64,000 nt of DNA from Lingula anatina (lineage: Eukaryota > Animalia > Brachiopoda), in NCBI GenBank assembly GCA_051362555.1, contig CM120647.1:6200001-6264000 (forward strand), given 5' to 3'. The first letter of the stretch is position 1. Each line of letters begins with the position of its first letter. The position numbers were made by a program, and so were the translations under genes. This document shows positions 14,404-64,000 of the stretch, piece after piece. Below the pieces are notes generated by a model that saw nothing but the letters and a program-made list of their open reading frames with translations, ran no database searches and was not told the DNA's origin.

Positions 14404-14489
14404 GTGAGTCTTCCTTGTAATGTTTGCCTGGTGTTGGTTGTTTTATGTCATGTTGTGTGGATATATATTTATATTTATATTTATATATA

Positions 14490-14884
14490 CAATGGCGGAT
14501 CCAGCATTGGGGGGGGGGGGGGAGGGGGGGGGTCTCGATAGTCCGAAGGTTCATTGGTCTGAAAAATGGTAGCATTTTCATCAGTTTTTTAATCAAGGGT
14601 TCGTTGGTCTGTAGGGAAAATTCGGACCAGTGAATCTGTGGACTATTGCTACTGCCCCGGTGCACACAAGTGTTAAATAATGGGCCCAATTTTACAATTA
14701 TAATATTATAAAATTATAATGCTTAGAACACAGGGATGGAAACATTTTCTGGTATCATTTTGCTTACTTATTTTATTTAATCATTTACTTTTTAATTTTT
14801 TTGTTGGGAAGAGGGGGGGGTATCTCGGAAAGTTGGGGGGATGGAAGCTCATGCCTGTTGTAACTTTGCCCGGATCTGCCTTTG
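14490..14884. mobile_element. Decayed hAT-like MITE hosting the 14525 insertion
   Basis: Termini CAATGGCGGATCCAG ... CCGGATCTGCCTTTG form imperfect inverted repeats with G-rich subtermini; no clear TSD. Confidence 0.45.
14525..14659 (-). mobile_element. Second, older copy of the GGGG-ended foldback MITE (inverted)
   Basis: GGGGTCTCGATAGTCCGAAGGTTCATTGGTC...CATTTTCATCAGTTTTTTAATCAAGGGTTC...GGACTATTGCTACTGCCCC is the reverse complement of 6682-6855. Confidence 0.75.
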
Positions 14885-16641
14885 TGACATTGTTATAAAA
14901 CTGAATTTTATCAAATTTTCATCATTTCTGAGATTGGTCAAATGTTGAACCAGGTGTTATTTCTTTTTCTTGATATTTTGTATAATTTACACATGAAAGT
15001 CTTCCAGAGATTTGATTGTTGTATTTATGCCACCACATAATATAGATCCCAATTGTTTGCATTTTCAGGATTATTATAAAGTTTTGCTTATATCTCTCAG
15101 TCTGATAATTGTTTTTGTGTGTGTGTGCGTGTGTGTGAATTTTAAAATTATTTGTGGGTGATCAGCGTTACTGTTTTCAATAGTGTCACTGGAAAATGAT
15201 TATTAAACTGGAATAAAAAGACCTGGTTAAAAAGATGAATGAATAAATAAATAGACAAAGGAATGAGTAAACATTTGGAAGTAGATAAATAAAATGCATA
15301 GTTGAATAAGATGAATAAACATGGACGTGGACAAATATTATAGGTAAATATAGAGATTGATCAAATTTAAGACATATTTAAAAAAGCAGTGTGTGGTATG
15401 ACACAAAATATGTAAATACAGTTGCTGACTGTGACAATACATAACAAATGATAGTACTTCAGATTCTATCACTCATCGTGGCCCTTTTAGAATTGTTTTT
15501 TTTCTATTTATCCTTGATCAAACTTGGAGATTAAACTTAGATGGGTTTTCTTATTGGTTTTAGCAAGAAATGGATGATATTAATGCTATTTATTGTTAAG
15601 TTGTGGCTTTAGTCCTGGGAATACTCGGGTTAGTTGAGGCAATAAGCAGGTGCTACTATATCCAGACGTTCTTGTGGCAAAGATTAATTTTCCTAGAAAA
15701 CTCACCACTTTTCCCTTAATTTCCAAGGAATTTCCTGCTGTAAAGTGTTGGCAACATTTTGATCCTATAAACAAATTATCAAATATTAAATTGAGATGTT
15801 TTTACATTTAGTACTGAAATTCACCAGTTTCTCTCCCTGTCATGCCAGTCCTGTACTAATAATGATAATTAAAAAAAAAATTAAAGCTAGAAATTAAAAA
15901 TGGCTTTAGGAAGTGCAATTTCATGTACTGTTTTGGATAGGGTATTACGTGATGATTATGGAAAATTGTGAAATTGGTAAGAAAATTTTCATTGTTATTT
16001 ATTATTATTATTAGTGGTAGTAGTATTTGTATAGAAAGTTCTAACTCTTGCAACGTTCGTTGTGGAATTATTTTATAGAGTTATACTGTCTGAGATTGGG
16101 AACAGCTTAATCTGACAAACATTGCTCATTTTGTGGTCTTCAAATGATGAGAAGCAACAGCAAAATACAAATGCCACGTGAACCAAAAGAAAAATAGCGT
16201 TTTGGGGCCTGGAATAATGGGGGTTTTGTTGTGCAAGTTTTTTTTATGAGTTATGCAATGCTGATTATTTAAGGAGGTTAGAATTCAGGTAAAAATGTTT
16301 ACCCCACTTACAAATGAATATGTTTTTATACATACCTGTGGCATGTTATTTTATTTATTTATTTTTTTGACTGTGAACTAGTTTCTAGATAAAAACTGCA
16401 ATAACAACTATGGTGGGAGAAACTAGGACGGAAAAACAGACTTATTTTCTATTCCATATTTTCAAGATTGATATTTAAGTTCTTAAAAAACATGGTAATT
16501 ATTAAGAAATCGCAAAGTAGGTATTGTAAATAAATTTTCTTTTTGCAGCACAATTGTTTTTAAAAATAATTTGGATAAACATTTATACCAAAATTGGTTC
16601 AGGTATATGAGAAATGTGAGCAGAGAATTTTTGGGGTTTAA

Positions 16642-16880
16642 AGGGATCATAACAACTGTTTGTATGAGACTCATATTTACAATAAATGCATTGTAAACAA
16701 CTCATAGAAATATAATAAATTCCTTTTTACCACCAAAACAGCAGTTAAGGCAATTTTTCTGGAGTCTATACTTGCCAAGGATGGCCTTACCTAATCTCCT
16801 AAGAGATTATAACGAAAAATTTCAAACTTTCTTAGAAAAAAAAAAAAAAAAAAAAACATGGACTCGAAAATGGTCAGATT
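16642..16880 (-). mobile_element. Kolobok-like element, copy 3 (inverted, truncated)
   Basis: TTAA|AGGGATCATAACAACTGTTTGTATGAGA...AACAACTCATAGAAATATAATAAATTCC is the reverse complement of the 3' part of copies 1 and 2; the other end is not recognisable. Confidence 0.65.
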
Positions 16881-18569
16881 TTAAATAAATAATAAAATAA
16901 TAAAAATGAAAGAGAGGTTGCTGTACTTGTGGTATTTTTTTCCTCAAATGCACCATGGGGCAGTCAAAACAACACAAAGATGGGAAAAGGCAAATGCAGA
17001 TTATTTTATTTCCGAACATCTGCTCCGATACCTTAAAAACAGGAAGTACTTTGTGGTCTGCGGGTCTGATAAAATCTTTCATGAACGTCTGCTCGGTTTG
17101 TTTGCACATTTGGAAGGTCGGCTGCTATCTTTGGCAGTGGAAACATAAGCTTGGTTTTAGACCATCATCAATCCGTATTTTATTGGAAACCACAGTTTAT
17201 TAATCAAGTGAAGAGTACTCCGATTCTTTGTTTGCTAGGAAACCACCAAGAAATCATCTTAATGACAAACCACGGAGTTCTTTGTTTTCCTGTAACCACA
17301 CTTATCAAATCCAAGCTGGTGCTTTCCGTTCTTTGTTTTCTGACAACCACAGATCTGATGCATGATGCCTGCTCAAAGGGTTGACGCCAACCGCCCAGAA
17401 AATGGACGGAATCACTTTGTTATTGTTCGTTCAGAATTGCATTTGCTAGGTGGGGTATTTTAACCCCCTACCCTACAAACAAATCTCTTAATCTGATGAA
17501 CATATTTAGGATTTAGTACTGGGATTTTAATCTGTGTTGAGCTATTGAAATAGGCGGAATTTCTCTTGACTGTTCTCAGAAATTTTGTTTTCAAGTCAGC
17601 CTTTTCTGTGATTTGTATCAATTTATAAGTGAACAAATGCCATTTCATTCAGATGATATATCATAATTTTTGACAATTAAAGCCACTGCTGAAAATTTGA
17701 GATGGGCTAGCCTTTTTTTTTGAAAACTAAGAAAAATTTATCGCTTTTTTGTAGTGGTAGATTTAAACCAATACATTGTCTCTTTCAACTCAAACTAGAT
17801 ATGCAGTAGTTCATGATCATTGAAATAGAGAAACTATTTGCCTAAAACAATAGCCATCTCTTTCTAAAAAAAAAAAAAGAAAAAAAAATTAGGTAGTTAC
17901 TTATTTATCTTATGTCAAAATGGACTAAAATTTTGATCTTAAAGTTAAGACCAATTTTGGGGGCCAGATATTTTTTTATGAATCAATCCACAATGTTGAT
18001 GTCGCTGATGTCGCAGAAAATAGACCCATTAGCGGTTGTTTACAACTTCTCAACCAGACGCTTAATATGGGGCCACGTTGGGTCATAGCGGGTGATTAAG
18101 GAGCCTTAAGTCTGACGAGAAATCCTATTTCATTTTCCAGACATTTCTGTGTCCCTGAATGATATGAATCCTGCCTTGGGCATGTTCACAATACAGACAG
18201 ATAAATTGTTTCTAAATTGGTCTCGATGACAAGGAATTTTTTTTTTGAAGAGAGCATTGCTGATAAGGCGATTTTCTATAGAGGATGAAACTCATTTTTG
18301 TCTTTTTTTTTTTGTCTTCTTTCTTTTCTTTCAGACTTTGATTCAGTGTGGCTGTATTAATGCTCTGTGTGTGTGTGTGTGTTTCTGTGCGCGCGCACAT
18401 GAGAGAGAGAGAGAGAGAGAGAGATTATTCATTTATTAAAACTACACGAAGCATGACAGAATATATTTTTAAAAAATAACGATGTAGACAGAAAACCCCA
18501 TCCTTGTCCTACTAGCCATATGTGTCAACAAGTACAACAGATGGTGACTACAAATTAACCTGGCTAGAT

Positions 18570-18810
18570 AGGCAGTTTTCACAAAACAATTTCAGTTCGA
18601 AAATCAGTCCAAACTTCGGTCTACTTCTGACCTTAGATAAATCAGTAATAGTCCAGTTTTAAGAAGTGTTTGTGCTTTTTTTATAAAAATAAAGTCTTGG
18701 ACTATGTTTGAGACAATTACTTACTTTATTTAAGCGGACTGATATAGATTTATCTAGAATGAAAGTTTGGACCTATTTTCGGTCCGAAGTTACTTTGTGT
18801 AACTTGGCCC
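18570..18810. mobile_element. Decayed Harbinger-like foldback MITE
   Basis: GGCAGTTTTCACAAAACAATTTCAGTTCGAAAATCAGTCCAAACTT versus AAGTTTGGACCTATTTTCGGTCCGAAGTTACTTTGTGTAACTTGGCCC. Confidence 0.55.
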
Positions 18811-19354
18811 TGATTTTCATTCATAAGTGTGGTCTGCACTTTAAGCACCCTCCCTTCCTTATATAAATAACCAAGAAAGGGGGTACAGAAAGTTCATATA
18901 TTTTTTTGACATTTTTTGCATATTTCTTGGACTTTTAATAGATGTAGATAGTGTCTGCACTGTTGGAGATAATTTCGGGGGATCTAAATAGCGAAATATA
19001 TGTGGACCAGGATATACAAATTGTTTGTCACCTATAAAAGTTATGAAAAGGAATTGCGTATATATTGGCTCACTACTTTAAACAGGAGAGATTATCAGAA
19101 AGACTTTAAACAGTGGACCAATGTATTTATAGATTGAATGTTTTTGTTTTTCTCACTCTTTCGACTTAATTTGATATATTATTGTAGAGCTTCTTAGTGC
19201 CATAATTACTTACTAGTAATGTTTTCAAATCCCTGACTATTTCTATAATTTTGTTTTTACAAAAAATCTTTTTTCAAACCCTCCCTAAAGATTACTTCTC
19301 AAGATGAAGCCTATCAACATTTTAATTTAATTACAAACAAAACATTTCTTGAAA

Positions 19355-19622
19355 ATTAAATTAATTCATTTTGTTCAAATTTAATGAGCATTTATCATAC
19401 CTTAGAAAAACTTGATGCTCTAAAAGTGACCATTTTTTGTGGAATGGAAATTAATTAATATATTTTGTTCACATTTGATGATTAGTTACCATTTCTCAAA
19501 TAAACTTTACGCTCTAACAGTGACCATTTTTATGTGAAAATTAATTAACTCATACTGTTCAAATTTAATGAGTATTTACCATACATTGAAAATACTTTTG
19601 TGCTCTGTAAAAGTGACCATAT
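19355..19622 (+). repeat. Diverged tandem repeat, ~90-bp unit x3
   Basis: AAATTAATT...TGTTCA(A/C)ATTT(A/G)ATGA...GCTCT..AGTGACCAT occurs three times. Confidence 0.7.
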
Positions 19623-20723
19623 TTTCAAGTACCCCTGTAAGATGGCAATCTCCTCTTGTAACAGCTTGAAGTGTGTCTTTGACCCCTGACCCCTGACCCC
19701 TGACCTCGTCTAGCCACAACTATTTGTTTGTGTCCCGCTCAGTACACTGTTGAAATAAGATAACTTGCGCAGCAGTGTAATTTATAGACCTACTTTTGGG
19801 TTGAGTTTCCAGGGTTGTTGGAGGTGAAGAATTCTAAGGGGGGGGGGGGGGGCACTGGGATTTCAGCATGGGATAGAGTTTTTGTTGGTGTGATACTAAG
19901 TACAATGGGACAAAAAAAAAAAAAAAAAAAAAGAAGAAGCAGTGGTGAAACAATAGATAAAGTGGGTTTATATTGAGGTCCCTGCTTAATATCAGTTTAT
20001 ATGAGGCAAGGAACTGAAAATCTGAGAGCCTTGGGCAAGGGGGGGGGATCATTGGCATCTTTGCATAAAGCAAAGCAGTCATCAGTGTCTAATTTAGTAC
20101 AATGGAGAAACAGAAACTATGGTGGCCTTGAGGTTCTTAGTTGTAAGGAGGCGAGAAACAAAGTGAGATAGAATGCAACTTATTAAAGTATTGGCAGTCA
20201 AGACGGGGGAGAAAGTGTTTATGAGTATTTTAGGTCAGACGGGTTTGTTTTCGTGTTGTTGACCTTATGTGATTGCCTGCTCAAGTCAGTGCATGCGTCC
20301 GTTTTAAAAAAAATGTCAACAAGACCTTTAGCAGATAGAATTCTCACAGGAGGATTTTGACTGGAATTGCCATTCTGTTTATTGGGTTACTCAATCTGCA
20401 TTGCCCTTTTGAGGGTAGAATATTTTCAATGATTTCCTGAATTCTGCATTAAATGTTTCAGTGTATCTATAGTAAAGCCTTTGAATATGTATGGCTGCAA
20501 AAGCATGTCCTTACCAGGACCCCCCTCACTCCCCCCCCCCCCCCCCCCTAGACTCCCAAATTTCTCCTTAGGTAATTTGCTTTATTTCACTCGCAAGAAG
20601 AAATAATACTATAATGATGATAATTTATACAACTATTATATAATTGATGCATTAGAAATTGTGATATGAAATTTGAATAATTAACAGTAAATCTATGTCC
20701 CTAAAAGGAATTTAGTGTTTGTG

Positions 20724-20768
<45 letters not shown>

Positions 20769-22193
20769 ATATATGAGTGACAGCCAGTCATATTTCAGCA
20801 TTGTGTTTGTATTGTTTATTTTTGAAATCTAAACAAAAATGGCATTCTAATATTGTTAAAATACAAGGTCAATAAATCACTACCAAATTAATTTATAATT
20901 ATTGGTTAAGAATAAACCTTGAAATCAGTGAAGGGATAAAAAAACATGCAGATAGCAGCAGTGCATTCATTCTGAAAAATCTCAGTTGTTGGCCAGACGG
21001 AGTTTAGCTGCCCGTGGAACTAGTGAATGAATCGTTCTAAGCAGGTGGAATGAGGTTTTTGTGGTCTGGGGTTGTCCAGGGGGGATCTCCAAAGAGGAAG
21101 ATGGCCATAATTTATTTTTATCCAGTATTTTTCCCTTCAGGGTTTGAATTTTGCACAGCAGACCTCATTTTAAAAAAAAATTTCATGATTGGTTTTAATC
21201 AATTTTTAATGATTTTATTTATTTTTTATTATGTTTCGCTTGGCAAAATAGAACAAACACAAAAATTACGAAAGTTCCTCTGACAAATTTTTACTACATG
21301 CAGGAGTCGAACTATTTCTGACCAAGACGTTTATAAAACGACCTCATTTATATAACATTGGACTCTTTTTCCAGCTTTAGTATAGAACCAAATTTTTTAT
21401 ATGGTTCTCCAAGATATTTTTATTCAAGTATCCCCTCCCCCCTCCCCCCTCCCCCCCTGTACACTTTAAAAAAATTTTGCACCTGCCTTAATGTCACCCC
21501 CTACCCTTACCCAAACCCCTCTTGTACACCCCCCTTGTTAAGCAGAATAAGTTCTATTGCATGTAATTTGCCACCTCTTCATGCTGTATATCCACAGTAC
21601 CAGCTTCTCTCAGGTGACTGTGGGCCGTGTGGCGTGTTGTTGTTCTACCTGATCCGTCTGTAGACTAAACTGTGCTGCTGTGATAAAATCTTCCGACTCC
21701 GGGCCGACCCAGTCTGCTCTTCTAGTGCTTTCGCGATGTTTCATTTGCGATGAGGGGAAAAAAAAACAAGACCTTTCGGAACAGCCTACTGTAGACAAAA
21801 ATGATGGCACAGTACTAGCTGCGTAAATATGTTGTAAATCTACTCGTGTGACAATAGAAGTAGACATCCGATACCAGAAGTGATTATTTTAGAAAACGGA
21901 TCAAGTCTTCAATAGCCAGTGAACCATATTGACCACGTGAGAATCAGAAACAACAAACAACCTCTTCAATAACAGAGGACTCTCCATTTGGACATTACAT
22001 CCAGTGAACTGCTCGGGTCAGATGTATTCCATTACTATACCCTCCTAAGTGTTTATTTCTCAGTTTAGCACCTCTAAAAGTGCCCTGAGGAGTTGGACTC
22101 ATTGACTGCTTTTGGTGACCTTATTTTGTCTGGAAAGTGGCAGCCGTCCATTTCCGCTGCTGTGGGGTCTGTTTCTCGTGGATTTGACCTCCA

Positions 22194-22269
22194 ATGGATG
22201 TTTTTATGGGAGGGAGGAAGAAGCTGCGACGTTCGTTTAGTTATCCCAGCGCCTGTTATACTATACAAG
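22194..22269 (+). CDS. Candidate alternative first coding exon of IRS, 25 codons + 1 nt
   Basis: ccaATGg start (second in-frame ATG at 22206); MDVFMGGRKKLRRSFSYPSACYTIQ; ends CAAG|GTATTG (phase 1). Preceded by ~600 bp of GC-richer unique sequence and followed by low-complexity TTG/ATT-rich DNA. Confidence 0.4.
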
Positions 22270-23315: not shown

Positions 23316-23360
<45 letters not shown>

Positions 23361-29375: not shown

Positions 29376-29406
<31 letters not shown>

Positions 29407-30359: not shown

Positions 30360-31172
<813 letters not shown>

Positions 31173-33940: not shown

Positions 33941-34199
33941 TCTATAGAGTAGATGGATTTTTGCAGTTTTTGATAGATTTAACACATTGCTGTACTGTTT
34001 TTTCTTTTCTTCTTTATCTGTCAGCTTTATTTAACAAATTAAAAATTTTGAATTTTGCTCATACTCTTCTTCCTTCTTTTGAATCAACATTTAAAATGTT
34101 ACTCATAAAACATTAGTTTTAAAGTTATTTCGTGAGAGTGAGTTTTTTAATCACTCTTGCACAATTTTATCTGGAAAATATACTGCAGCCAAGAAAGAT

Positions 34200-35801
34200 A
34201 CCAGTTTCCCAGCTGGGTTTTCCTCGCCCAGTAGTCACATGACCTCCAGCCAGTCATTTGACCTCTCAGGAGGTCGGAGGTCACTGTAAACAGCTGGTGG
34301 GCATGTGTGGCTGGCTATAGCATAGTAAACAACTTGGCCTATATAGTAGTGCTTAGAATAGGGGCAAGGTGGGATGGTTCTCGGCTGAAGTCAACAGGAT
34401 CATTACCAAGCCTTATTTTGTGTATGCGGGTTACTACCACTTAGCCATGATCTATGAACGTGAGAGAAAGTGACGTAGTTTGGAAGTTGGGTCACTTACG
34501 TGTTTAAGACAACTTTCTACGTAGTGGGTTACTATAAAGGTGGGACTCCTTGAGAACAAACGGAAGAGTTTATTTTAATAGACTTTGTGTGTTGTTAATC
34601 GTAGGGATTTATGATACACCTGAGAAAAACAAACAAGGACATTAAATGATTTACCGCATTGGAGTTAATCATTGAGTGAAGACCAGTCAGTGAAAGTGAA
34701 ACACAGGTGAAAAAAGCACGAGGCTTTGAGGATGTTAGCGACTTTGTTGGGATATTTCCATTCATTGAGAAGGAGAACGTGAGAGCGTGTTAATGTATAC
34801 TGTGGTTTCAAAGATCCAAGATTAGAGGCACCAAAGGAGGATCTTAAAGCTGTTTTTTATTTAAGGAAATTCATATTTATTCACAGACAGGTACTGAGCA
34901 AGGGTTGGCTTAAAATGTGGTTAAGAACGTTTGTTTGTGCTGTACTCAGATTCAGAAGTTCAAGCTGATTTTAACTAAAGGGTTTCCCAGGTTCATATTC
35001 AAGACAGAAACACAAAGGCAGTCGGGCCCTGTGGGAACTCAACTGGTAGGAAATATCAACATTGATTGGGGATTTTTCCAGTAATTAAGGGATTCTCCTT
35101 GAAGGCAGACATTCTGAGGTCAGAAAAGAAAACATCACGCCACTCGATTTGAACCAAAAAAAAAAAAAAAGGAGCTGAGCAGACGGACAGTGCCATATTG
35201 ATTTTTACTAAGTGGTGGGATTTTTCTCGCCTGGTTACTTTTTTCATCTGTAGACGGATTTAATAGCTCTGCGGTAATTTCACAGTTCCAGTTGTTGTTC
35301 TTATGACTGGGTCAGTAGCAGAAGAGAGGGACTATTCTTAGAACAGTATGTATTCACGTTGTAGAGACTACGGGAAGGCTCTAGAGAAAGGAGGTAAATA
35401 AGTGGAAAAATCGAACGACACAGGGATTAATCAGAAGTGTTTGTTTATAGGAGTGATAGCCAATGTGCATCAGTGATTCAGAGATTTTTGAAGGAGCTTG
35501 AGGATTTGTAGTCATATTTGTGTACTGAAAGGTTTCAGATCACATAAAATAAGGACTACAAGGAACTAGATCAGGGAAGAAAAATAAAAACACTGAAAGA
35601 GGTTGTTGACATTTGTGGGTTTGTTTCACAATTTCTTTCAATGTCTGATGATTTGGGAGAAGTTGCAGACGACAGTTTTAGTGTTGTTGTGTACTGGGTT
35701 TCCAATTTGAAAGCAGGAAAAAACATTTCTATTTCGGCAGACGACATTCTGTCAGCTTCACAACCCTGGCAGGCGAGCACGGATGTCAAAAAGTGAATGA
35801 C
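34200..35801 (+). promoter_or_regulatory. Putative internal promoter and long 5' UTR for the 35802 exon
   Basis: Repeat-free, purine-rich stretch preceded by GTCACATGAC (34234-34243), GTAAACA (34286, 34325), half-CRE TGACG (~34471) and TATAAA (34533-34538). Confidence 0.35.
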
Positions 35802-36009
35802 ATGGGGATATGGAACAGACTCCTGAAAGTTTGGGCCAAAACCAAACGGAAGGGTTCGGTGGAGTTTTTGGACCATAAATTTGTCTTTGACGGACACATC
35901 ACAAAAGGAGCCAAGAAATCTCAGAAAAATTCGCACAAAAATGGACTCCGGAGATCGAAGAGTTGGTCCCCGGGTTTGGCAAAATGGTGGTTGAAAACCG
36001 AACGTACAG
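35802..36009 (+). CDS. Candidate alternative first coding exon of IRS (PH-less isoform), 69 codons + 1 nt
   Basis: gacATGg start; MGIWNRLLKVWAKTKRKGSVEFLDHKFVFDGHITKGAKKSQKNSHKNGLRRSKSWSPGLAKWWLKTERT; ends ACAG|GTAAAT, a phase-1 donor like exon 2. Composition switches abruptly to T-rich/(TA)n intron-like DNA right after the donor. No homology evidence available. Confidence 0.55.
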
Positions 36010-36057
36010 GTAAATTGTTTTTGTTGATGTTGCATGTTTTTTTTAGGTTTTTTTTAG

Positions 36058-39109: not shown

Positions 39110-39334
39110 GACCCCATTCCCATAGATTTTAGATCGATCTATCCCTGTGGAGAGTCTCACCAGATTACTGTCAGCTTAGCCAACTTAAGCATCTGTCCCC
39201 CCTACTAAATGCTGAAAGGGGGTAATTAACTGTCGTGCGCGCTTGGCTGACTGCACTTTAGCGTGAACCCCCAGGGAGTTAGGTCGATCTAAATCTAAAT
39301 CTCTGGATCGATCTAAATCTCTGGGAATGCACCC
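39110..39334 (+). mobile_element. Harbinger/Tourist-like MITE, subfamily A copy 2
   Basis: GACCCCATTCCCATAGATTTTAGATCGATCTA ... GATCGATCTAAATCTCTGGGAATGCACCC; colinear with 2775-3000 over its whole length. Confidence 0.8.
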
Positions 39335-43330: not shown

Positions 43331-45130
43331 AGGGTGATAGGGGTTCGGACTTTTGCTGGGGAAAAAAGTCTGCTCTGGGTGAAATTTGATCTAAGTGCAC
43401 AAAGGTTGCATTGTAAAAGGTTCACTTTTCTAGAAAAAGAACCCCCTCTCCCACCCCTTTGAATTTGATGACCATGCACCTGGGGAGAGAGAGATAGAGA
43501 GAGAGAGGATGGATGGATGGATGGATGGAGAACGGAAAAATGGGATCTATTATTCCAGTTAATCGTCTGAAATGACGTCATTCCCTTGTTATTGCTATTG
43601 TTCCTGGCATCCCAAACACAGGTGTTCTGTTACAGGTAAACCTGGTATTTCCTGCTCATTCTAGCAAAGGGGATAGAATTCTGATGAAGACGATGAGAGG
43701 GGGTGGGTTATCAAGTTTGTTCCATCTTGTTTATAACTAGAAATTCCTCTTTATGTCATGGTCCTCTATTGATGTGGTCAGTGGCCAAACTCAGTGGTCA
43801 CTGTGCGTGTGGGACTGGTCACTGCACCCTTTAATATTGTGGTCAATCTTACTCAAGTGGCCACTAAAGGATCGGTTGCTATTATTGACACCAACATGTC
43901 AAAACAACTCTACCTACAGGAAGTGACCGTGACCACCTGGTCAGTCTTGGACATGAAATTGACCGCTGGTCAGGTTTGGGTGGTCACTGCACCTTGTTAT
44001 TATTGGTCAGTCTGTTCAATTATAAATGTTTACTAGGTTATCGTCACAGTCTGGAGTGCTGCCACGCCCACTTGTGTTCAGCTTTGATGGTAATAATGGT
44101 AGTTGTTCATGTTATGGTTCCGGTACGTTTTCTATTGAATTACGTCTGTCCCTTTAAAGTTGATGTTTATAAGTATGCACAACCACCTTTCATAATTACA
44201 TCACTTGTTTGTTTATTTTGTTTATCGTTGCGTGGAATTTGCAATTGTTGAGGTGTTTGCGGGTGGACTGAGTGACCTTTTACTTTCAAGAAATGTAGAT
44301 TTTTTTTTTTTTGTATTTTATATGCAGGCATAAATAACGAGTCCTTGAACATGTGCATGTGACTTGCTTTATAATTTTCATTTCGACCTTTCATGTGTGA
44401 AATCTTAGACTTGCTATTCTGTTCATGTATAAAATTGTTTTAGTTATAAAAAAAAAGAAGAAAAAAATACTTCCTCCAAAGTGCTTTGTGTGACAAAATG
44501 ATATTAGATGTCATCTTAATGTTTATAAATAATGAACATTTTCTTTGTTCCTTTGTTGTGTTTCCTGGTATAGAAAAATAACGTGAACAATCTCTTGGTT
44601 TCATCTTTGCATTTATCAGTGTAATATCTCTTTTTCCCCTTATTTTTCATTTGTTAAACTTCCTCCTGCTTTCTGGACCTATTTTTCATGATGTGGATGC
44701 ATTAGTTATTAATATTATTCATGTGTGCACGCGCGTGTGGGTTTTATATTTCCGAGAAAAAAATATTATGAAAGGCAGCAGCTGAAAAACAATCTATATA
44801 ATTGACAGTAAATGGCAGCATCTGTACATTTTTGACATAAATGGGCACGTTTTTGTTTCATTTTCTTAATGGGAAGGGAAGTTCATGAAGGTACACATTG
44901 AATAATTGATTGACAAATGATAATGGCAAGGATTATGACGGTCAAAATTATACGAGGTTATTTTTGACGAGGACTAACTCTGTTCCCAAATGATTGCCTT
45001 TTCTGGCATAATGATTATTATTTCCATCTGACCATTGGTTTGTCGGTCGTCTGAGTACTTATATGTTAAGGTCAAGGTCAACTTTAACGCCTTCTCCCCA
45101 TCTGTTTTTTACATTCACAGATACTTAATC

Positions 45131-51913: not shown

Positions 51914-51958
<45 letters not shown>

Positions 51959-53611
51959 ACACATACTACCACTCCCACCAAGACAGACATATTCAAATCT
52001 TTTACAACTTTGCTGTTTGTCAACAAACTAGCTGTTATTGAGTTATGTCTAAGGGGTTAGAGATTTTCACCTTCAGAGTTTTATTGTTGTCACTAATCTG
52101 TTTTTGTCCAGATTTTCCTCAAAAGACTCAACCCGGGCGGGGGAGGGAAGGGCAGCTAACATAAAATGCACACACAATGTGCACTGGCGTTTGTATTGTT
52201 GCTTCTGTAAACAAATATGGGTGTTGTTGTCATAATTTGTTTTTGGCAAAAGTTCCTATTGTTAAGTCACGCTTCACGCCTGAGGAGGTTGTAACATGAT
52301 CCCCTGCTCATCAAAACTATTTATTTGAACTAGAAGTGTTGTTGGGTAAGTGGTTGGTTCACCTTAAATTAAGGTTTTTTTTCTGTGAGGATGGGGTGAT
52401 TCGGTAGGCCTGACAAGGGCACTTATTTTGATATGGTAACAATGTTGACAAGTTAATTTCAACTTCGTGATACATTTATAAGGTGGTGAGGTGGTGAATC
52501 TTTTGTAAAGAATCTGAATGTGTTTTTCTGTCCGTGAGTCGTGACACATTAACCCATCATCAAAGGAAATGTCATATAGAAATGATTTACTTACCATTTC
52601 ACAAAAAAACAAAACAATGAAGAAATTGTTCCCCAAATTTACTATAGTTATTTATGTGTTTTTTACTATAAAATGGATATTGACAAATGATTCCCTGCAT
52701 TGTAGAAATTTGTTCAGTCAAGATATGTGGGATTGTGTGACCTTGTGAATTCTTAAGTCACTTTGAATTTTTCTCTTTTTGAAAGTGGGTCCTTTTTTCC
52801 TAAAAGAAAATCACTTTTTACTAATCAAGTTTTCTAGTAATTGTTCATAGCAGAATAGTGTGTTTATTAGCATGTCTCCTAGGTTAATGGAATTTGGAAT
52901 TTTTGACAGTGGCAGTTATAATTACCCTCTAATCTACGATTCATTGGCTGTTCTGAACTAAGCTCTCAATGACATAAATAAGTGCAGAAATGTCCCCATC
53001 AAACCTATGCCTTCTTGAATGAATCAGACAAAGCTCTGTAAGCCCCTGGCTATTTTGAACTTAAGTTTCGGTGACATTAATGAATTCATAAACAACATCC
53101 CTGTCAAACTTTCAAACTTAGGAGATATAGTGTGACCTGTCCTTGTATGACATTGACCAAAAAAAAAATCGAGTCTACTTTTCCCAAGAGAAAGGGGAGA
53201 TAAAGGGATTGGCATGATCTCGTACTGTTTATTAATTTAGATGCAGGACACACAGCGATGCCGAGGTTGCTGGCTAGCATATCAACATACAGATATGGAA
53301 AGTTTTTTTTTTCTTTTAAGAGAATTTGTTATTTGTATTTTGAAAAGAAAGCTTGAAAGGTTATTGATTTTTGTGTAAAATCTTCAGAAAATGAAATTAA
53401 ATTTATTGTTGATGTGGTAGATGGTTTTATTTATTTTTATTTATTTTTGCATTTTCATGGGCTTATTGAAATACACAGTCACACAATTGAAAAAAAAATA
53501 GATCCACATGGTACACTTTATCTAATACACTGCTTTTAAGTATCTAGAAAACAGTGATTTATTTCAAATTTTAAAGAATTTTTTTAAATGTTGCTTCATA
53601 TAGATAGGTTT

Positions 53612-53885
53612 ATCTTGATTGACCCAATGCTTCCAGTCACCCCCTCCCCCCCCCAAAAAAATATCTTGATTGACCCAATGCTTCCAGTCACCCCCTCCCC
53701 CCCCCAAAAAAATATCTTGATTGACCCAATGCTTCCAGTCACCCCCTCCCCCCCCAAAAAAAAAATATCTTGATTGACCCAATGCTTCCAGTCACCCCCT
53801 CCCCCCCAAAAAAAATATCTTGATTGACCCAATGCTGCCAGTCACCCCCTCCCCCCCCCCCCAAAAAAAAAAAAAAAAAAAAAAA
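53612..53885 (+). repeat. Minisatellite, ~51-bp unit x5
   Basis: ATCTTGATTGACCCAATGCTTCCAGTCACCCCCTCCCCCCC(n)AAAAAAAT repeated; units differ almost only in homopolymer length. Confidence 0.95.
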
Positions 53886-55346: not shown

Positions 55347-55408
<62 letters not shown>

Positions 55409-55502
55409 GACATGCACACATACATACACACATGCACACACACACAAACATATACACAAACACATACATAAACACACACATACACACAGTCCAATGCAGT
55501 CA

Positions 55503-56812
55503 CAGACTTTACGAAAGGCGTCGGACCGTCAGACATGCCTGGCAAATTTCGTCTCGGTCCGATAAAAAATCCTGTATCGTCGGACCGTATGTCCGGTGAA
55601 TTTTCAAACTGACTGGGAATGTGTAAATATAAGGAATACGTTGTTGTTTCTTTTCTGGACGATATATTTTACTACATTCGAAAAGAGAGACGGGGTGAAA
55701 ATCTCGGGGAGTTCCCAGCTAATTATACATAATTTATTAACCTCAGTTTCACTCACAAATACTATTTTGTGACTGGCTGAGGTTGGGGGATTCCTGAATG
55801 ATGTAATGTACAGTCTCGTTTTCGTTTTCATAATACCCCTACATGACAAAATGGCTGCAACACATGTGCCCGTGCTATTTGCGTTTTTACAGACTTGATC
55901 CTCTGTTTCTTCATTATCAGTCGAACACAGTACTCATGGATAAGTCTTTTGTTTAGAAAATGACGTTGTTGAACTTTAAACACTTCGTTGGTGCAAAGCG
56001 TGGCAAAAATGAAAACGAAGTGAGGAAGAGAAACGGAAGTTTACTAAAATTGGAAAGAAGGTAGGCCCTGGCGGACTTGTGACCTGTAGGAGAGGAAAAT
56101 AGTGTGTGCCGATTGTCAGGAGTACTAAAGTTATCATTTTGACCAATAGCAACATAAATGTTACAGCTTTATTACGGGCTCTTAAATTATGGAACATATG
56201 TACGTATTTGCATGTACCGTTCACCACGAGTTGGAGAAAGTGCACATGAACTTGATAAAAGCTCACAGTTTGAGTTTTTTTTTATAAAAAAGAAATAAAA
56301 TGAAGAAGGAACTTGGACTCGGGATGGACAGTCCCTGTCAAAGCTTCAATTGGATGAAAGAGACTGCCTTATTGTGCTGTTTCAATATGCATATGTTATT
56401 GCCAAAAACAAGATGTGAAATGGTTATCTGATTAACAATAACAGACGTTTTTATGGACATACATTTGATATTGCTAGCTACACAATTCTTCATACTTGTA
56501 TTGTTTTTAGCCCTTGTGTCATTCCACAGCGTCTTTTTCATTAAATAAAAAACAACTTGTTATGCAAGTAATTTTTTGTCTATTTTTTTTCTTTCTTATT
56601 TTACTTTTTTACAAATAAATATATATCAAAAATTTAATATTTGAATTTATGTCAGTGATATAAAACGTTAGAAAATACACATGAAAACATGAATAATGGT
56701 TCATATTTCTATTATTTTACTTCGGTCTGACAGATTTTGTTTCGGTCTGACAGAATTTTCAAGCTTGTCAGACCGAATGTCTGACAGATTTTTTGGCCTT
56801 TCGTAAAGTCTG
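55503..56812 (+). mobile_element. 1.3-kb non-autonomous hAT-like DNA transposon (internal deletion derivative)
   Basis: Perfect 17-bp TIR CAGACTTTACGAAAGGC / GCCTTTCGTAAAGTCTG; flanking direct repeat (TG)CAGTCA; subterminal GTC(G/A)GACCG / CGGTCTGAC repeats at both ends. Confidence 0.85.
55960..56250 (+). pseudogene. Frameshifted remnant of a transposase N-terminus with a TTF-type zinc finger
   Basis: Across frameshifts and stops it reads KRKFT..WKEGRPW (56031-56071), IVCADCQEY (CxxC at ~56105), YSFITGS and HELEKVH (56225-56245). This is the RxF..W...PW / CxxC / F..G / HxxxxxH pattern of ZNF862/KIAA1586-type hAT transposases. Confidence 0.6.
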
Positions 56813-59470
56813 CAGTCAGCAGTTTCATACTGAGCCAGGATATTTTTCTCACAGACACAAATATTCGCAACTGACCTGTCTGACTTGTTGTGATGATGTT
56901 TTTTTTTTTCTTTTTTTTTTATGAAGTTGGCTGTAGAATTTTTTTCTCTATCACTAGACAACCACCTGATGTTTGGAAATTAAAAAGAAATATCCTAGTA
57001 GTTGAAATTGTCTGGTAAACAGGATAGAGGAATAGACCACCTGTTGTTGATCTGTGAAAAAACAACCAATTGAAATGAAATTAAGCTGACTTGGATGAGT
57101 TTGTCTGCTTTCTGAGGCCTGTCTGCTTCAGGTGAAGATAGGAGGAAGACCTAGGGTGAAAAAGTGCAACGGCAGGTCTGTTTTGCCGCTCTTTTCTCAG
57201 GGGAAAGAGTTTATAGGGGCTGAATGAGTACAAGGTATTGATACAGGTGTCAAAAAACAAAATAAATAAAAAAAAATAAATACAACTTTTCCCTTTATTA
57301 TCAAGGTATACCACGCCCAAAACTCTACACAGAATTATAGTTCATAAACCATTTTTGAAATTCTAAATTTGTAATTTTGTTTTTGACTCGTGCTCTTAAT
57401 GGAGCTATTGTCTGATGGATTTCACTTGTATAAGACGCTGTAAAAATTATTAGAAAGTCAGGACTGTAAGAAGGGCTTTATAGATCACCATATATTTTAT
57501 CAATAGTTTTTGAAAAGGTAAACCTTGATGATCTAGAAAAAATTGATTTAATTTCTTGGAAACTTTTTTTGTAATATATGAAGGTCAAACACATCTTGTA
57601 TGCCTTGAATTTGAAGTGAACTAACTTGAACTGCTGTCTCTAGGTGTCTCTAGTAGTTGTTTCGGGTTTTTTTATGACCTTGTATCGCTTCTCAGTATAA
57701 AGGGCAACATGTTAGGATGTCATGGAATAGTTACCAGGTGCGTAAAAAACGAGTTGACTGACCTATAGGTGTTTTCCCAAAATGTTTTCCTTTCTTTTTC
57801 TTCTTTGGAAAATCTTTGCTTTAAGCATGATCAGAAGTGAAGCTGGTGAAGAAGAAATTGTTAAATGACTTGAAACCACTACAAGACTCAGACTTTTGCC
57901 AACATAAAGCAACAAAGGATTGATTTCAGAAATATAAGTTGACATGAATTCAATTGGAATTTTTGCCACTTTTTTGTCTCCTGAATAACCATCCTGAATT
58001 TTTTTTCAAAGAAAAGAACATTTTTAGTTATCTTGTCCACAAACGGACCAATTCTGATAAAGTAACCTCTTTTATTGACAAAGCTTATGAAAAATGCTAA
58101 TGACAAGTTTTTTTTTTTTTTTTTGGTGAAAAAAAATTTGTTGTCAGGAATGCCACGTAATGAGAACAAGACTTTGATGGTGAACTTAGGAGCATCATCA
58201 TTTTTTTTTTTTTTGTTCCATTCTCAGAATGGGAAAAAGGCAGAACCTGCAAGATTTTTATGTGGTAGCAGTTAGATAAATTTAAGGCAGTTGATGTCTT
58301 ACAACAAAAACAAGATAATTTGCTCAGTGTACCCCCCAAAAAAGTCAAGATTAAGTTCACACCATGATGAGGAAAAAAGGAATGTTTCAAAATCTAGGAT
58401 CAAGGTTAGAACATCGTAATTTAGTGAAAAGTTCATGACCTTTGGGAATTTTGAACAGGTGTAACATTCAAAAGTAACAAGAAAGTTGATCTTTTGGGTC
58501 CAGAGGCCTTACTAACAAGTATTTACTGTTCCTCAACTGGCAAGCAGTGAAAAAGGCTTTCTCTAAGTCGCCATGGGTGGTGTTTAGAGTAGAAAATCGG
58601 AATTTCAGCTCATTATTAACAGGTATAAATTTGAACAAACAGGAAGAACTATTTTAACGGCCCAGAGAGATGTTGCTGTTTACTTTTGGTGTTGGAAACA
58701 AAATTTGTGCCCCCAAAAATCTGGATGCATGCTCTGTGTGGATAGACGGCCAATAGTGCTGTTTCTGTTACAGCAGATGAGAAGAAAAATTAGAATATCT
58801 AAACGTCTGTCCCTGATAAAACAAATTCACCCTCCCTCTTCCCCTCTGTTTTAAACTTTCAAAAGGGACAATAAATCATCATTTACATATTGAATTGACT
58901 TATATCTTTTTGAAACCCCATACCAAATAAAAATGACAAAATCATTGTCGCTTTCTGTTGCCAAGATAAACTTGTACGTGACAAATGTGCTGCCATCTAT
59001 CGGCCCTAATATAAAATAAATTGACTTCTGTTGCAAAATTTAAGCGAAAAATTGACAACATGTATCATATTTGCCATCCTCTATCAAGAGGAGCTTGTTT
59101 ATTATGACAGGTGCTGCCATCTATGGTCCATGATGTGAAATTAATTGACTTCTGTTACAAAATTTATGGAAAATGCTGCAACATCTTGATGGGGACCACC
59201 TGTTGTTGTTGCAGATTTCACATTTCCTGTTTTTGACTGAAAAATTAAAAGAAAAACAGGACACTAGTTTGTCATTTTTGAGTATGCTTGTGTATGATAT
59301 GAATAAGGTCAAATGTGTGGAATCGAAATATATGATGCTCAGAATGCGGTTTTGACAGCTTACCCCTCTTTTTTCAATAGTTTTAAGATTTCAAACTAAA
59401 TGTAAACTTATAAGTAGGTTATTGATTTGTTGGGTTATAGAGATAGCAAAAATAGTTGTTTCTTTTATAT

Positions 59471-59505
<35 letters not shown>

Positions 59506-62332
59506 TTTTTTTTTTTTTTTTTTATTGACAAATAACAATTTCTCCCATTAATGTGTTCAGGCTGATGCAAGGTCATTTAAGGTCAAAAAATGTTGAAACA
59601 CTCAGCCCACCTACCATCCGGAAATACCAGTTCCTGACAATCCCCATAAAACTTGAGACTTTTCATCAGAATTGTTTTCTTAAACAACAGGAAAATACTA
59701 CAGGAAAATACTTAAACATTTCTTCAGTGGCCACATCAAGGATACTCTAAAAGCCATTAGCCTTAAATTGTTTTGGCCACTGACAAAAAAACGAAAAAGG
59801 ATTTGACTTCAAAATAAAAAGCCATTTAGGGACATGATTAACGATTAAAACATTAATTATACCTTTTTGGGGAGAAAAAATTAAAAGCAAGCTCAATACA
59901 AACAGGATTTGTGCATGGTGAATTTGACAGAAGTGGCAAGTTTGTGGGTTTACTTTGAAAGTGGACAACATTGAAAGTATGGCCTTGCCTAGATTGGAAT
60001 ATTTTGGAGACAATCAGTCCACAGCATGAGGTCATGGCTGAATTACAGACAGTATATTAAAGGAGTGGTTTGGTCCAGGAAAAAAGTCAATTAAAGGGAA
60101 GTTTTGTTCATCTCACATTGCCATCGTCATTATCATCATTATCTCAATTGCATACCAATATTCTTTACTTTTTTTTCCTATTTGATTGACTTTTTAAATT
60201 GTTTTTTTTTTTTTTTTTGGTTGGGGAGGGGGGAAAGGATATATCCAACAACAAGTACACGTAGATTATGATTAAAATTTTTATTCCTGGTAGATATGCC
60301 TTAAATATTAATAGCTCAATTCTTTGGACTTAGTTCTCATTTCTGGATATTCTACTGTACTTCCCCTGTCTGTCCCGATATCGATGTTTTCATCAGTCTC
60401 TGTCCTTTTTTTCCTTTGTTCCTTGGATAAGAATAGAGTTAGTTGATCATTTCCATTGGAATTTCATTATTTAACTCCCCCCCCCCCCCCCCCCCCAAAA
60501 AAAAAAATCATATTTATCAACATTCTATGGCAGATGTATGACACTTTATAGTTATGAGGATATGATACATTGAATGAAATAAAATTGAAAAAAAAAAAAA
60601 AAAAAACAGATAGGAGCTGGTTGAGAGCAGGATATCATTAGTCAAAATTCATGACAGATGTCTGACAAGTTAACAATAATGATGTAATTTGTCTGATTGA
60701 AAAAAATGGAAAAAATTGAAACAGGCAGAGCAGATGTCAGTTGTACCCAAATTTATCATTTTCAACTCAGAACCCTGCTTTTTGCACTAAAGGACCCCAG
60801 TTTGTATGAAAATGGAGGCAGAATACTGGATTAATAAAGTTATTTTTGGCATTAAACGCTGCTCAACGAGCTATTTTTTCCCCGCAAAGATAAACAGATA
60901 TAGGAGTCTCAGTGTCTGGATCAAGAGGTCGGAAAAAAATAGTCTGGACATGGTTCAAACACGGAGGGCCTGACGCACAGTAGTTTGTTTGGAGAATAGG
61001 TTTGCAATTAGGGTCAGGTGCACTTTCAGGTGCTTTTCTGGTACAGCTAACTAATTTTAGACTTGACTGGTAAGGTTGGGTAATAAATACGAAAATGTTG
61101 TGTTTTGTTTTATTTTGTTTTTTGTGTGAATTGCCTGGGGAGAAGAAAAAGTAGGATGGTTTTTGAACGGAGGCAGTGTTATTTTTGTTGATTTAAAGTA
61201 CTCATTGGCCATGCTAGCTGCTTGCACTAAAACATCCGAGCATGGCAATGACGGAGGTCGTTTGGATGGAGACAGGTGATTTCACTCATTAGGGCAAAAA
61301 ACCAAAGTATGTACCAGTAACTTTAAATAAGTTATCTTTGTTGAAGTAAACTGTACCTTCACATTGCCATTCATCTATTCAGCAGTTGTGTTCCCATATC
61401 TTTATAGCCTGGTGTATAATTTATTTAGAACTAGATTTCACAAAAATTATACCAGCTTATTGCTTTCATTGGATCGAATAACTTGTTGACTGAGACCTGA
61501 TCAATTTTGCATAAACTTATGGCCAATCTCGGTCATTAATTGCACTAATTGGAGTTATTTGTGAGATTGCTGGGTAATAAATTACATTGCATTAATGCAT
61601 TGCGTTCATGGTACGGGGCAAAATTGCACATTGTAAAGGCTGGTGAATTCAACCATTACACTTAATGATACTTTAGAATTTGCTTTTCATGAAATTCATC
61701 ATTTTATTTGTCACTCACTATCTTTTTTTCTCTGTCTATCATGAAAGCAGATTGCTTTTTGCAGACCATTAAAATGATATTTTTCAGGATTTACTAGCAT
61801 TACTAGTTTAAATACTCTTAATACTTGTAGCTCAACCTTTGCAAAGTTGACTTAACGGAGCTGGCTATCTGATATTAGCTATCCAAAAGCTTAGTCAAAG
61901 AAGTTCAACATACTATTTATAACAAATAAAATGGGATAAAAGTTCCTGCGACCAGGCTACTTCAGTGAATATCAAATCCTGATAAAAATTTAAATGATTA
62001 CTGTAGGTGGAACATCTCGTGACGTGATTAAAAACTGATTTATGCCTTAACAACTTTTTAATCGGAGGTTGCAGTTAAATGAGTCGGATATTCCCCCATT
62101 GAATTGATCCAAGTTACTTTGTTTTGGAATCCCAGTCAGGTTATTTTCTCGTTTTCTTGAAGTTTAATTCATCATGATGTGGAGAATGCTCAAATGAGCT
62201 TTTGAGAATTTCTAGATTTTTTTCAAGATCTTTGATATGAGGGAGAACTTGGCCTACATCTGGGGCAAAAGTCTTCGCACGCTCGCACACAAGTACACAC
62301 ACACACATACACATACACACACATGCTACTAT

Positions 62333-62500
62333 GGTTGTTGCCATGTTGATTCCTGGTTTTGGTTGTTACCATGTTGATTCCTGGTTTTGGTTGTTACCAT
62401 GTTGATTCCTGGTTTTGGTTGTTACCATGTTGATTCCTGGTTTTGGTTGTTACCATGTTGATTCCTGGTTTTGGTTGTTACCATGTTGATTCCTGGTTTT
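62333..62500 (+). repeat. Minisatellite, 28-bp unit x6
   Basis: GGTTGTTACCATGTTGATTCCTGGTTTT repeated six times with one variant base in the first unit. Confidence 0.95.
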
Positions 62501-63065
62501 CATGAATTAAAAAAAGGTATTCCCCCACCTTGTTTTAAGGGTCACTGAAAACAACAGAGGCATGCTGATAATATGGAGGGGAGGTTTCCACTGACCCCTG
62601 AAACCAAGGATTTATTTACCCCACCTATAAAGCTTTTATTTCTTCACATATAAAATCCTGTCTTGATATTGTTTTGATATCCAAGTTTTGTTATTTGGTT
62701 GGTGTCTAGGAATCTTGGCAACTTCAGGTGTTAATGGAAACTTCTCAGGCGCAAAGACGACTTCGATTGTTGTTATGTAAGTCCTCCAAGATATTGATTG
62801 ATTAAAACAGACACGAAAAGGGAGCATTATCAGTAGCAGCACCTTCTCCAGAGAGACTTCTGTCTCAGATAACCTCACAATTAACTAATTGAATACCAAT
62901 GCTAATTAGATAGGGGTTAGGTGCTTTAAGGAAATTATGGTGCCCTGTGGTTTGGGTGATGGGTAACTGTCAATGTGTGGTTTGAAATGAATGATCTATA
63001 TACTTGGTTTTCATCATGTGGTGAATTTTTGTGATGTAATTCCCTTGATGTGGGAAGACCATAAT

Positions 63066-63135
63066 GGTGCACGGGATTTGATGACACGGTGCACGAGATT
63101 CTATTACTCAGTGCACGGGATTTGATGACGAGGTG
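63066..63135 (+). repeat. Short degenerate tandem repeat GTGCACG(G/A)GATT x3
   Basis: GTGCACGGGATTTGATGAC twice plus GTGCACGAGATT. Confidence 0.7.
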
Positions 63136-63970
63136 CCACTGCACACATTATTTTTGCGTTATGTCCTGCTAATATTGACCATATACCAAGAATTAGGTCT
63201 GATTGAAGTATGTACATCTACCATATATGTGGAATAAAAAAAAACTAAATTTAGACAACTACTAAAAATGTGATTATATATATATATATATATATATATG
63301 AAACAACTGAAGTGCAGCAGAATCATTTGGTCTTAAATGATATAGAAATACAGTGAAATTAGTCCTAAATAGAATAAGTACTGTAGTGGAATTATTTGTT
63401 TCTAATTGGTAAAAAAGCACTGCTGAATCATCCGGTCTTAAAGATACATACAAAGTCAATTTTTTGTCACAAAAACCAACCAAATGCCAGCATATAGTTT
63501 CAAGTAGTATAACTAAGAGAATTACCAAAAGGCATTGTTTAATTTTACCCGAAAATGATGTTTGAACAGATTTTTCTGCTGGCATTCTAAGCTGTATGTC
63601 AATGGGGCAGGAAAGTAGGTCACGAATGTAGGTTAAATTTACAACCATAAATTTAAAGAAAGGAGCAGTCTAAAGGTCTTTTATGGCTGATCGAGTGATC
63701 TATTCAGTTTATCCCTTGGCATGTCAAATTTATTTGAGTCATATAAGAATCTAGTAGAGGTGGTTTACATGTGTTACTGGGAATCCACGCTCCACCGATG
63801 CTCGGTTCGTATGTACCTTTAAATTTTGGCACAATGTAAAGCTAAGTTGATTAGTTCTACCATTATATCTAAGTCTTTCTTGGCACAAGTTTCATCAGCA
63901 CATTCACACCCAAAAGGGCTTTTTTATATTCTTCCACTTTGGCACAATTAAGGCATGTGACGACATCTAT

Positions 63971-64000
63971 GACCCCATTTCCAGAGATTAGATCGATCTA
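63971..64000 (+). mobile_element. Left end of another subfamily A MITE, cut by the window edge
   Basis: GACCCCATTTCCAGAGATTAGATCGATCTA matches the left terminus of 39110. Confidence 0.65.

What the first reader, a model, noticed from the sequence alone, without database searches (positions are those of the whole stretch)
14404..64000. Possible variable-N-terminus system: several phase-1 alternative first exons in IRS intron 2 that could replace the PH domain
Seen: PH exon 2 ends in phase 1 and is followed by >49 kb with no PTB exon. Islands of unique, GC-richer sequence within this intron hold ATG-initiated ORFs ending at phase-1 GT donors: 22194-22269 and 35802-36009, with weaker candidates at 30663-30771, 16906-17116, 43572-43635 and 61242-61275. 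Known: IRS proteins use a PH+PTB tandem for membrane and receptor targeting; FRS2-type adaptors put a lipid anchor before an IRS-type PTB; plectin, UGT1A and protocadherin loci use variable first exons spliced to constant exons. Inference: this locus may swap the PH domain for different short targeting or regulatory modules through promoter choice. Caveat: short ORF-plus-donor matches arise by chance in AT-rich DNA, so only the first two have additional support.
Basis: partly seen in the sequence, partly recalled or inferred. Interest (0 to 1): 0.8.

Follow-up and report, generated by a model that had tools for sequence, protein, structure and literature searches.

The report
Insulin adaptor with swappable front ends
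In the lamp shell Lingula, the gene for the insulin-signalling adaptor IRS has extra start exons inside a long intron (one shown by RNA reads, one matching a database gene model) that replace its membrane-binding PH domain with short basic peptides, which likely act as alternative membrane anchors switched off by phosphorylation.

Summary
The window is the 5' part of the Lingula anatina IRS gene. The two strong candidates are alternative first exons. 35802-36009 and 22194-22269 encode, letter for letter, the N-termini of RefSeq isoforms X3 and X5. A third PH-less start (X4) lies outside the window. All join the same 1081-aa PTB-plus-tail part. For 35802-36009, raw RNA reads give 18 junction reads into the PTB exon, + strand transcription, its own 5' end near 34.3-34.6 kb, and only synonymous changes among the 3 coding differences listed. 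The four weaker candidates are indistinguishable from chance (30 such patterns seen, 22±5 expected), absent from the gene models, and untested by reads. An acorn worm (Ptychodera flava) model has a PH-less start joined at the same residue; 28 of 30 clusters checked show none. The Lingula X3 and X5 and the Ptychodera peptides are basic and carry an RR-x-S-aromatic-P-like site but do not align significantly. Likely mechanism (inferred): promoter choice swaps the PH domain for a phospho-switchable basic anchor. The strategy is known (plectin-type first exons, PH-less DOK1) and the isoforms are already in RefSeq; my searches found no paper describing it for IRS.

The parts
867..923 (+). Coding part of canonical exon 1 (19 codons, first strand of the PH domain; phase-0 donor)
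   Evidence: Matches the N-terminus of RefSeq X1 (P0060) at 867; donor read from sequence; CpG-rich upstream region
14100..14403 (+). Exon 2, rest of the PH domain, phase-1 donor
   Evidence: Pfam PH E 8e-08; 100% identical to Lingula anatina IRS X2
22194..22269 (+). Coding part of alternative first exon of isoform X5 (25 aa); 5' end unknown, GC/CpG-rich unique stretch from about 21590
   Evidence: Exact match to P0058 N-terminus, joined to the PTB start; upstream GC 99th percentile; not tested by reads
22227..22247 (+). Basic Ser motif of X5 (residues 12-18), fits 14-3-3 mode I consensus R-S-x-S-x-P (consensus recalled)
34340..36009 (+). Alternative first exon of isoform X3, about 1.4-1.65 kb; 5' end between about 34340 and 34590; long leader with 12-15 upstream ATGs
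   Evidence: Read depth zero at 34150-34338 in all runs, then near-continuous; stranded runs show + strand; 18 junction reads at 36009; TATA-like words at 34340 and 34533, upstream ATG count
35802..36009 (+). Coding part of X3 first exon (69 aa, net charge +14); residues 1-19 predicted amphipathic and basic
   Evidence: Exact match to P0059 N-terminus; 3 of 3 listed coding differences synonymous; charge and moment
35949..35972 (+). Basic Ser motif of X3 (residues 50-57)
30663..30771 (+). Unsupported candidate (36 aa); best of the weak four: amphipathic stretch and CpG-rich upstream region
   Evidence: in no gene model; not tested by reads
16906..17116 (+). Unsupported candidate, probably chance (weak donor, AT-rich surroundings)
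43572..43635 (+). Unsupported candidate, probably chance (follows microsatellites)
61242..61275 (+). Unsupported candidate, probably chance (11 codons)

Best explanation
An exon inside intron 2 of the Lingula IRS gene has its own 5' end and splices directly to the PTB exon, two more such exons are predicted by database gene models, and the resulting PH-less IRS isoforms likely use their short basic N-termini as substitute membrane anchors that phosphorylation and 14-3-3 binding would switch off. Shown: X3 exon transcription, strand, 5' end region and junction; the intact PTB and the full tail of docking sites in all isoforms. From gene models only: X5 and X4. Inferred from allele pattern: translation of X3. 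Inferred from sequence only: membrane binding, phosphorylation, 14-3-3 binding, tissue-specific promoter use. Odds by step: X3 transcript about 0.97, X5 transcript about 0.85, X3 protein made about 0.8, switchable-anchor function about 0.5.
For: RefSeq X3, X4, X5 share an identical 1081-aa constant part with X1 and differ only before it. Pfam finds IRS-PTB but no PH in them, and the junction sits at the start of the region matching the solved IRS-1 PTB (1irs_A). Reads: loose ends at 36009 in run X4 (4 reads) and run X7 (14 reads) translate to the first residues of the PTB exon; depth is zero upstream of 34339; runs X4 and X5 are strand-consistent with + strand RNA. Of the 40 differences listed, 37 lie in the leader and 3 in the coding part, all synonymous (P about 0.01; no change at about 164 non-synonymous sites, P 0.006 at the leader rate). 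Net charges +14, +9, +4 for X3, X4, X5 and +8 for Ptychodera; basic-hydrophobic score 0.86 (X3), 0.74 (X5), 1.02 (Ptychodera) against 0 of 1063 windows at 0.6 or more in the constant part (scale and threshold recalled). An RR-x(1-2)-S-aromatic-x(0-1)-P pattern occurs in X3, X5 and Ptychodera, and only twice in 99,190 six-frame residues of the intron, both in the two real exons. Ptychodera flava models join a 107-aa PH-less start at the same residue. Phospho-regulated basic-hydrophobic motifs bind phospholipid and are released by phosphorylation (PMC7340324, passages); 14-3-3 binds and inhibits mammalian IRS (PMC4443775, PMC2709114, passages).
Against: No protein-level or functional data. The shared motif was defined after seeing the sequences, and no pair of N-termini aligns significantly (shuffle p 0.07-0.24; BLASTP E 0.77). 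X4 scores below the basic-hydrophobic threshold (0.51) and lacks the motif, while an unsupported candidate (16906) scores 0.73. The aPKC-type site given in PMC7340324 is present in X3 only. The X3 leader has 12-15 upstream ATGs, one overlapping the start out of frame. 58 difference rows were not shown, so the synonymous-only result rests on the 40 best-supported rows; whole-leader versus coding density is not significant (p 0.26), nor is the absence of indels (p 0.25). Run X1 gave 0 reads (no test) and run X5 listed no junction. Titles in the reference list of PMC2709114 call the PH domain the principal link between receptor and IRS-1 and say heterologous PH domains do not couple it (titles only), so a lipid anchor may not restore coupling. 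28 of 30 clusters show no such isoform.
Confidence: 0.55

Rival explanations
1. The PH-less isoforms are made but act as dampers or relocated scaffolds: without the PH domain they couple poorly to the receptor, compete through the PTB or hold PI3K and SHP2, and the basic clusters serve nuclear import or 14-3-3 sequestration rather than membrane binding.
For: PH-less DOK1 (p37-44) moves to the perinuclear area and loses inhibitory activity on an SRE reporter (PMC4919572, passages). The PH domain is hypothesised to drive receptor recruitment of IRS (PMC2709114). All 8 YxxM and both C-terminal SHP2-type sites are kept. Short K/R clusters in X3 and X5 would also fit nuclear localisation signals (recalled consensus).
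Against: The X3 and Ptychodera N-termini start with an amphipathic Trp/Leu plus Lys/Arg stretch (hydrophobic moment 0.73 and 0.64; 99th percentile of the constant part is 0.65), more typical of a membrane-binding helix. Three different N-termini would not be needed merely to delete the PH domain.
Confidence: 0.25
2. The intronic promoters are real but the N-terminal peptides are incidental: the transcripts are weakly translated, or any in-frame start would do, and the point is only tissue-specific expression or transcriptional noise.
For: 12-15 upstream ATGs in the X3 leader. Low depth in runs X4 and X5. No homologue of the X3 peptide in three searches. Haliotis X2 and an amphioxus-hybrid X3 model start inside the PTB with no added peptide.
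Against: Listed coding differences in a 90-95% identical population are all synonymous. The X3 start has G at -3 and +4. Basic composition and the Ser motif recur in Ptychodera.
Confidence: 0.13
3. One reading: all or most of the six candidates form a larger array of swappable first exons.
For: All six have the right phase. Gene models miss rare exons. 30663 has a CpG-rich upstream region and an amphipathic stretch. The strict-donor class is slightly above its null (NAG|GTR, 20 aa or more: 10 seen, 5.1±2.3 expected), which the two real exons only partly explain.
Against: The loose pattern is at chance level (30 vs 22.2±5.2); none of the four is in the 5 isoforms read; 16906 has a weak donor in the most AT-rich context.
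Confidence: 0.07

Closest known systems
Genes with multiple variable first exons: plectin, NOS1, glucocorticoid receptor; PCDH, UGT1, GCNT2 clusters (PMC1885805, passages)
   Same: Several first exons in one frame, each spliced to common constant exons; X3 has its own 5' end.
   Different: Lingula's exons are not detectably related to each other, unlike the highly similar PCDH/UGT1/GCNT2 exons; the default 'variable part' is a two-exon folded PH domain and the alternatives are short peptides.
PH-less DOK1 p37-44 (PMC4919572, passages)
   Same: A PH-PTB docking protein with a natural form that lacks the PH domain and keeps the PTB and tyrosine tail.
   Different: DOK1 p44 is an N-terminal truncation with nothing described in place of the PH; here dedicated exons supply new N-termini.
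FRS2/FRS3 adaptors (recalled; no call)
   Same: IRS-type PTB preceded by a short N-terminal segment instead of a PH domain.
   Different: FRS2 is a separate gene with a myristoylated N-terminus; only X3 has Gly2 and its context fits poorly; these are isoforms of IRS itself.
[quoted passage not shown]
   Same: Short basic-hydrophobic stretch with nearby basophilic Ser sites.
   Different: Lipid binding and phosphorylation are untested here; the aPKC-type site occurs only in X3; X5 and Ptychodera carry a 14-3-3-type site instead.
Canonical IRS1/2, chico, IST-1 (PMC4443775, PMC2709114, passages)
   Same: Isoform X1 has PH, PTB, YxxM and SHP2-type sites.
   Different: These reviews give PH plus PTB as the common feature; the passages read mention no natural PH-less isoform.

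Membership tests
IRS family (gene) | N-terminal PH followed by IRS-type PTB | tested here: met
   X1 has PF00169 11-103 and PF02174 127-219; best PDB matches are IRS-1
IRS family (gene) | Tail with YxxM, YxN and C-terminal SHP2-type tyrosine motifs | tested here: met
   8 YxxM, 2 YxN, 2 SHP2-type sites in the constant part
IRS family (isoforms X3, X4, X5) | PH domain present | tested here: not met
   No PH hit in P0059, P0057, P0058; they are PH-less products of an IRS gene
Multiple variable first exons (plectin/NOS1 type) | Each variable exon spliced to common constant exons in one frame | tested here: met
   X3 by 18 junction reads; X4 and X5 by gene models only
Multiple variable first exons (plectin/NOS1 type) | Each variable exon has its own promoter | tested here: inconclusive
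   X3 depth begins inside the intron, with no upstream joint and no pyrimidine-tract acceptor nearby; no cap-site data; X5 and X4 untested
PCDH/UGT1/GCNT2-type clusters | Tandem array of highly similar variable exons | tested here: not met
   No significant pairwise similarity; lengths 25, 60, 69 aa
FRS2-type adaptor | N-terminal myristoylation signal before the PTB | tested here: inconclusive
   Only X3 starts Met-Gly; position 6 is Arg, not the recalled Ser/Thr; no predictor available
PRBH membrane motif | Basic-hydrophobic stretch above threshold | tested here: inconclusive
   X3 0.86, X5 0.74, Ptychodera 1.02, X4 0.51; scale and 0.6 threshold recalled; an unsupported candidate also passes
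PRBH membrane motif | Direct phospholipid binding released by phosphorylation | not testable with these tools
   Needs liposome binding and cell localisation assays

The most novel reading that the evidence does not exclude
A PH-replacing, phospho-switched front end is an ancient bilaterian option of the IRS gene: the phase-1 intron at the PH/PTB boundary hosted an alternative first exon in the common ancestor of brachiopods and acorn worms, giving insulin signalling a second adaptor whose membrane access is set by basophilic kinases and 14-3-3 rather than by phosphoinositides, and most lineages lost it or have it unannotated.
Probability: 0.2. Interest if true: 0.72.

Novelty: new variant of a known kind. 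Interest (0 to 1): 0.45.

Why it matters
The PH-PTB tandem is treated as the fixed core of IRS proteins, and how much the PH domain contributes through lipid versus protein contacts is still described as a hypothesis (PMC2709114). Natural isoforms that keep the PTB and all docking tyrosines but swap the PH for three different short peptides, with a parallel case in a second phylum, are ready-made tests of what the PH domain is needed for. They also suggest that invertebrates with a single IRS gene may diversify insulin signalling by promoter choice. The importance is moderate: alternative first exons are common, the isoforms are already in RefSeq, and function is untested.

Tried and rejected
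No whole genome is held, so the PTB exon and the X4 exon could not be located. No RNA holder was listed by the run index (no evidence either way); its raw-read runs were used instead. Reads were laid only on 34150-36030 (4 of 9 runs, about 6-25% of each); the X5 exon, exon 2 and the four weak candidates were not covered, so isoform ratios and tissue use stay open. Homologue searches for the X3 peptide found nothing: 10 candidates, none at E 10 or better (weak evidence); among the best 150 representatives no match began before query residue 51; Pfam 0 hits for 5 candidate peptides (the 11-aa one was not sent); Atlas hits under 0.8 (Numb-like fragments, lead only) and generic PTB clusters. Of 418 PTB-bearing proteins held, 29 lacked a PH match and had 20 aa or more before the PTB; 20 of these keep the native linker or part of a PH and were set aside as truncated or divergent models; 9 (3 Lingula, 6 Ptychodera sharing one N-terminus) remain. 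The bacterial promoter scan does not apply. Repeat scans showed no repeat origin for the two real exons within the window. The BH-scale source paper was not held. The Gab/DOS review passages gave no PH-less isoform. Structure and complex prediction were not run: short, probably disordered peptides and a phospho-dependent partner.
Full report
Identity. The peptide of 14100-14402 is a PH domain and is 100% identical to Lingula anatina insulin receptor substrate 1-B isoform X2. Exon 1 codes from 867 to 923 and exon 2 runs 14100-14403, ending in phase 1. Nothing of the PTB or tail lies in the remaining 49.6 kb. No genome was available to locate the PTB exon.

The observation. All six candidates exist as described, but the pattern alone is uninformative. 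The intron has 30 ATG-ORFs of 10 aa or more ending at a phase-1 NAG|GT on the + strand, 19 on the - strand, and 22.2±5.2 in 100 resamples. Independent evidence was therefore needed.

Gene models. The Lingula cluster has 6 members, 5 of them read. X1 carries the full PH; X2 starts inside exon 2. X3 begins with the 69 residues of 35802-36008 and X5 with the 25 residues of 22194-22268. X4 begins with 60 residues found nowhere in the window. All five share an identical 1081-aa constant part. Pfam finds the IRS-type PTB but no PH in X3, X4 and X5, and the constant part begins where the match to the solved IRS-1 PTB begins, so the PTB is whole. These models come from the same assembly and are automated, so they are not independent of the window. 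None of the four weaker candidates appears in them.

RNA reads. Four of 9 listed runs were laid on 34150-36030: run X1 0 reads (no test), run X4 36, run X5 31, run X7 202. Depth is zero over 34150-34338 in all runs and starts between about 34340 and 34590. The two stranded runs put nearly all first mates on the - strand, which means + strand RNA under the usual library convention. No internal joint was listed. Loose ends at 36009 (4 reads in run X4, 14 in run X7, agreement 1.0) translate to the first residues of the PTB exon; only 2 reads in run X7 ran over an end of the stretch. This shows the X3 exon as a 1.4-1.65 kb first exon spliced to the PTB exon. Run X7 is 90-95% identical to the window. 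Of the 40 difference rows shown (58 not shown), 37 are in the leader and 3 in the coding part, all synonymous third positions (P about 0.01). No non-synonymous change is listed over about 164 sites (P 0.006 at the leader rate). Overall density (p 0.26) and the 10 leader-only indels (p 0.25) are not significant. The leader holds 12-15 upstream ATGs, which argues for weak or regulated translation. The X5 exon and the weak candidates were not covered by reads.

Other animals. Members of 30 clusters were listed (at most 15 listed each, and 40 of 245 read in the largest). PH-less N-termini joined at the PTB start appeared in 2 of 30: Lingula and the acorn worm Ptychodera flava, whose six models share one 107-aa N-terminus. 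None appeared in the echinoderm, amphioxus, Saccoglossus, nemertean, mollusc or arthropod clusters. Two Haliotis models and one amphioxus-hybrid model start inside the PTB instead. Across 418 PTB-bearing proteins, 9 have a replaced N-terminus and 20 other PH-negative ones keep the native linker or part of a PH. The X3 peptide has no detectable homologue. The four alternative N-termini do not align significantly with each other. Convergence at a permissive intron is therefore at least as likely as shared ancestry.

The peptides. X3, X4, X5 and the Ptychodera N-terminus have net charges +14, +9, +4 and +8. X3, X5 and Ptychodera exceed a recalled basic-hydrophobic threshold that no window of the constant part reaches; X4 does not, and unsupported candidate 16906 does. 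X3 and Ptychodera open with an amphipathic Trp/Leu/Lys stretch. X5 has an exact R-S-x-S-x-P site (14-3-3 mode I, recalled), Ptychodera two R-x-x-S-x-P sites, and X3 a near variant. A pattern covering the three occurs twice in 99,190 six-frame residues of the intron, both times in the real exons, but it was defined after the fact.

Mechanism. Shown: an intronic 5' end and splicing that removes the PH domain while keeping the PTB, 8 YxxM and the SHP2-type sites. Inferred: the peptides bind acidic membranes and are released by Ser phosphorylation and 14-3-3, as for PRBH motifs (PMC7340324, passages) and in line with 14-3-3 inhibition of mammalian IRS (PMC4443775 and PMC2709114, passages). The main rival is a damper or relocated scaffold, like PH-less DOK1 (PMC4919572, passages); reference titles in PMC2709114 stress that IRS-1 needs its own PH domain (titles only). 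A second rival is that the peptides are incidental.

Comparison and novelty. The layout works like plectin/NOS1-type variable first exons and fails the similar-exon test of PCDH/UGT1 arrays (PMC1885805, passages). The isoforms are already annotated in RefSeq. Six full-text searches returned 3, 0, 1, 0, 0 and 1 papers, none on natural PH-less IRS isoforms judging by the listings; the library lacks most subscription journals, and no supplements were read. Unchecked notes from this scan report comparable alternative first exons in other Lingula genes, so the device is probably not rare in this genome; searches for this locus itself returned nothing.

Verdict. Two of six candidates are real, a third exon lies outside the window, four are unsupported. 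New variant of a known kind; interest 0.45.

Noticed in passing
window 924-14103: RefSeq X2 starts at the Met at 14103 inside exon 2, implying a further non-coding first exon in intron 1 and a PH domain lacking its first strand. Tachypleus, Eriocheir, Mercenaria and Octopus models also show variable starts at this junction.
   Followed up: partly
outside window (P0057): Isoform X4 has a third PH-less 60-aa N-terminus with Cys at 10 and 13; its exon is not in the window and probably lies between 64000 and the PTB exon.
   Followed up: partly
   Followed up: no
window 34340-35801: The X3 leader is 1.2-1.45 kb with 12-15 upstream ATGs, one overlapping the main start out of frame; run X7 shows molecule ends at 35559 and 35802.
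   Followed up: partly
P0420, P0421, P0233: Two Haliotis models and one amphioxus-hybrid model start inside the PTB, lacking both PH and a whole PTB.
   Followed up: no
run X7 on window 34150-36030: Reads are mostly 90-95% identical to the window, suggesting a divergent population or cryptic species under the same label.
   Followed up: no
window 53611-53859, 62332-62500, 2793-3000 and 39127-39334: Tandem arrays (51 bp x 4.9; 28 bp x 6) and a 208-bp dispersed repeat at 91% identity; ordinary intronic repeats.
   Followed up: no
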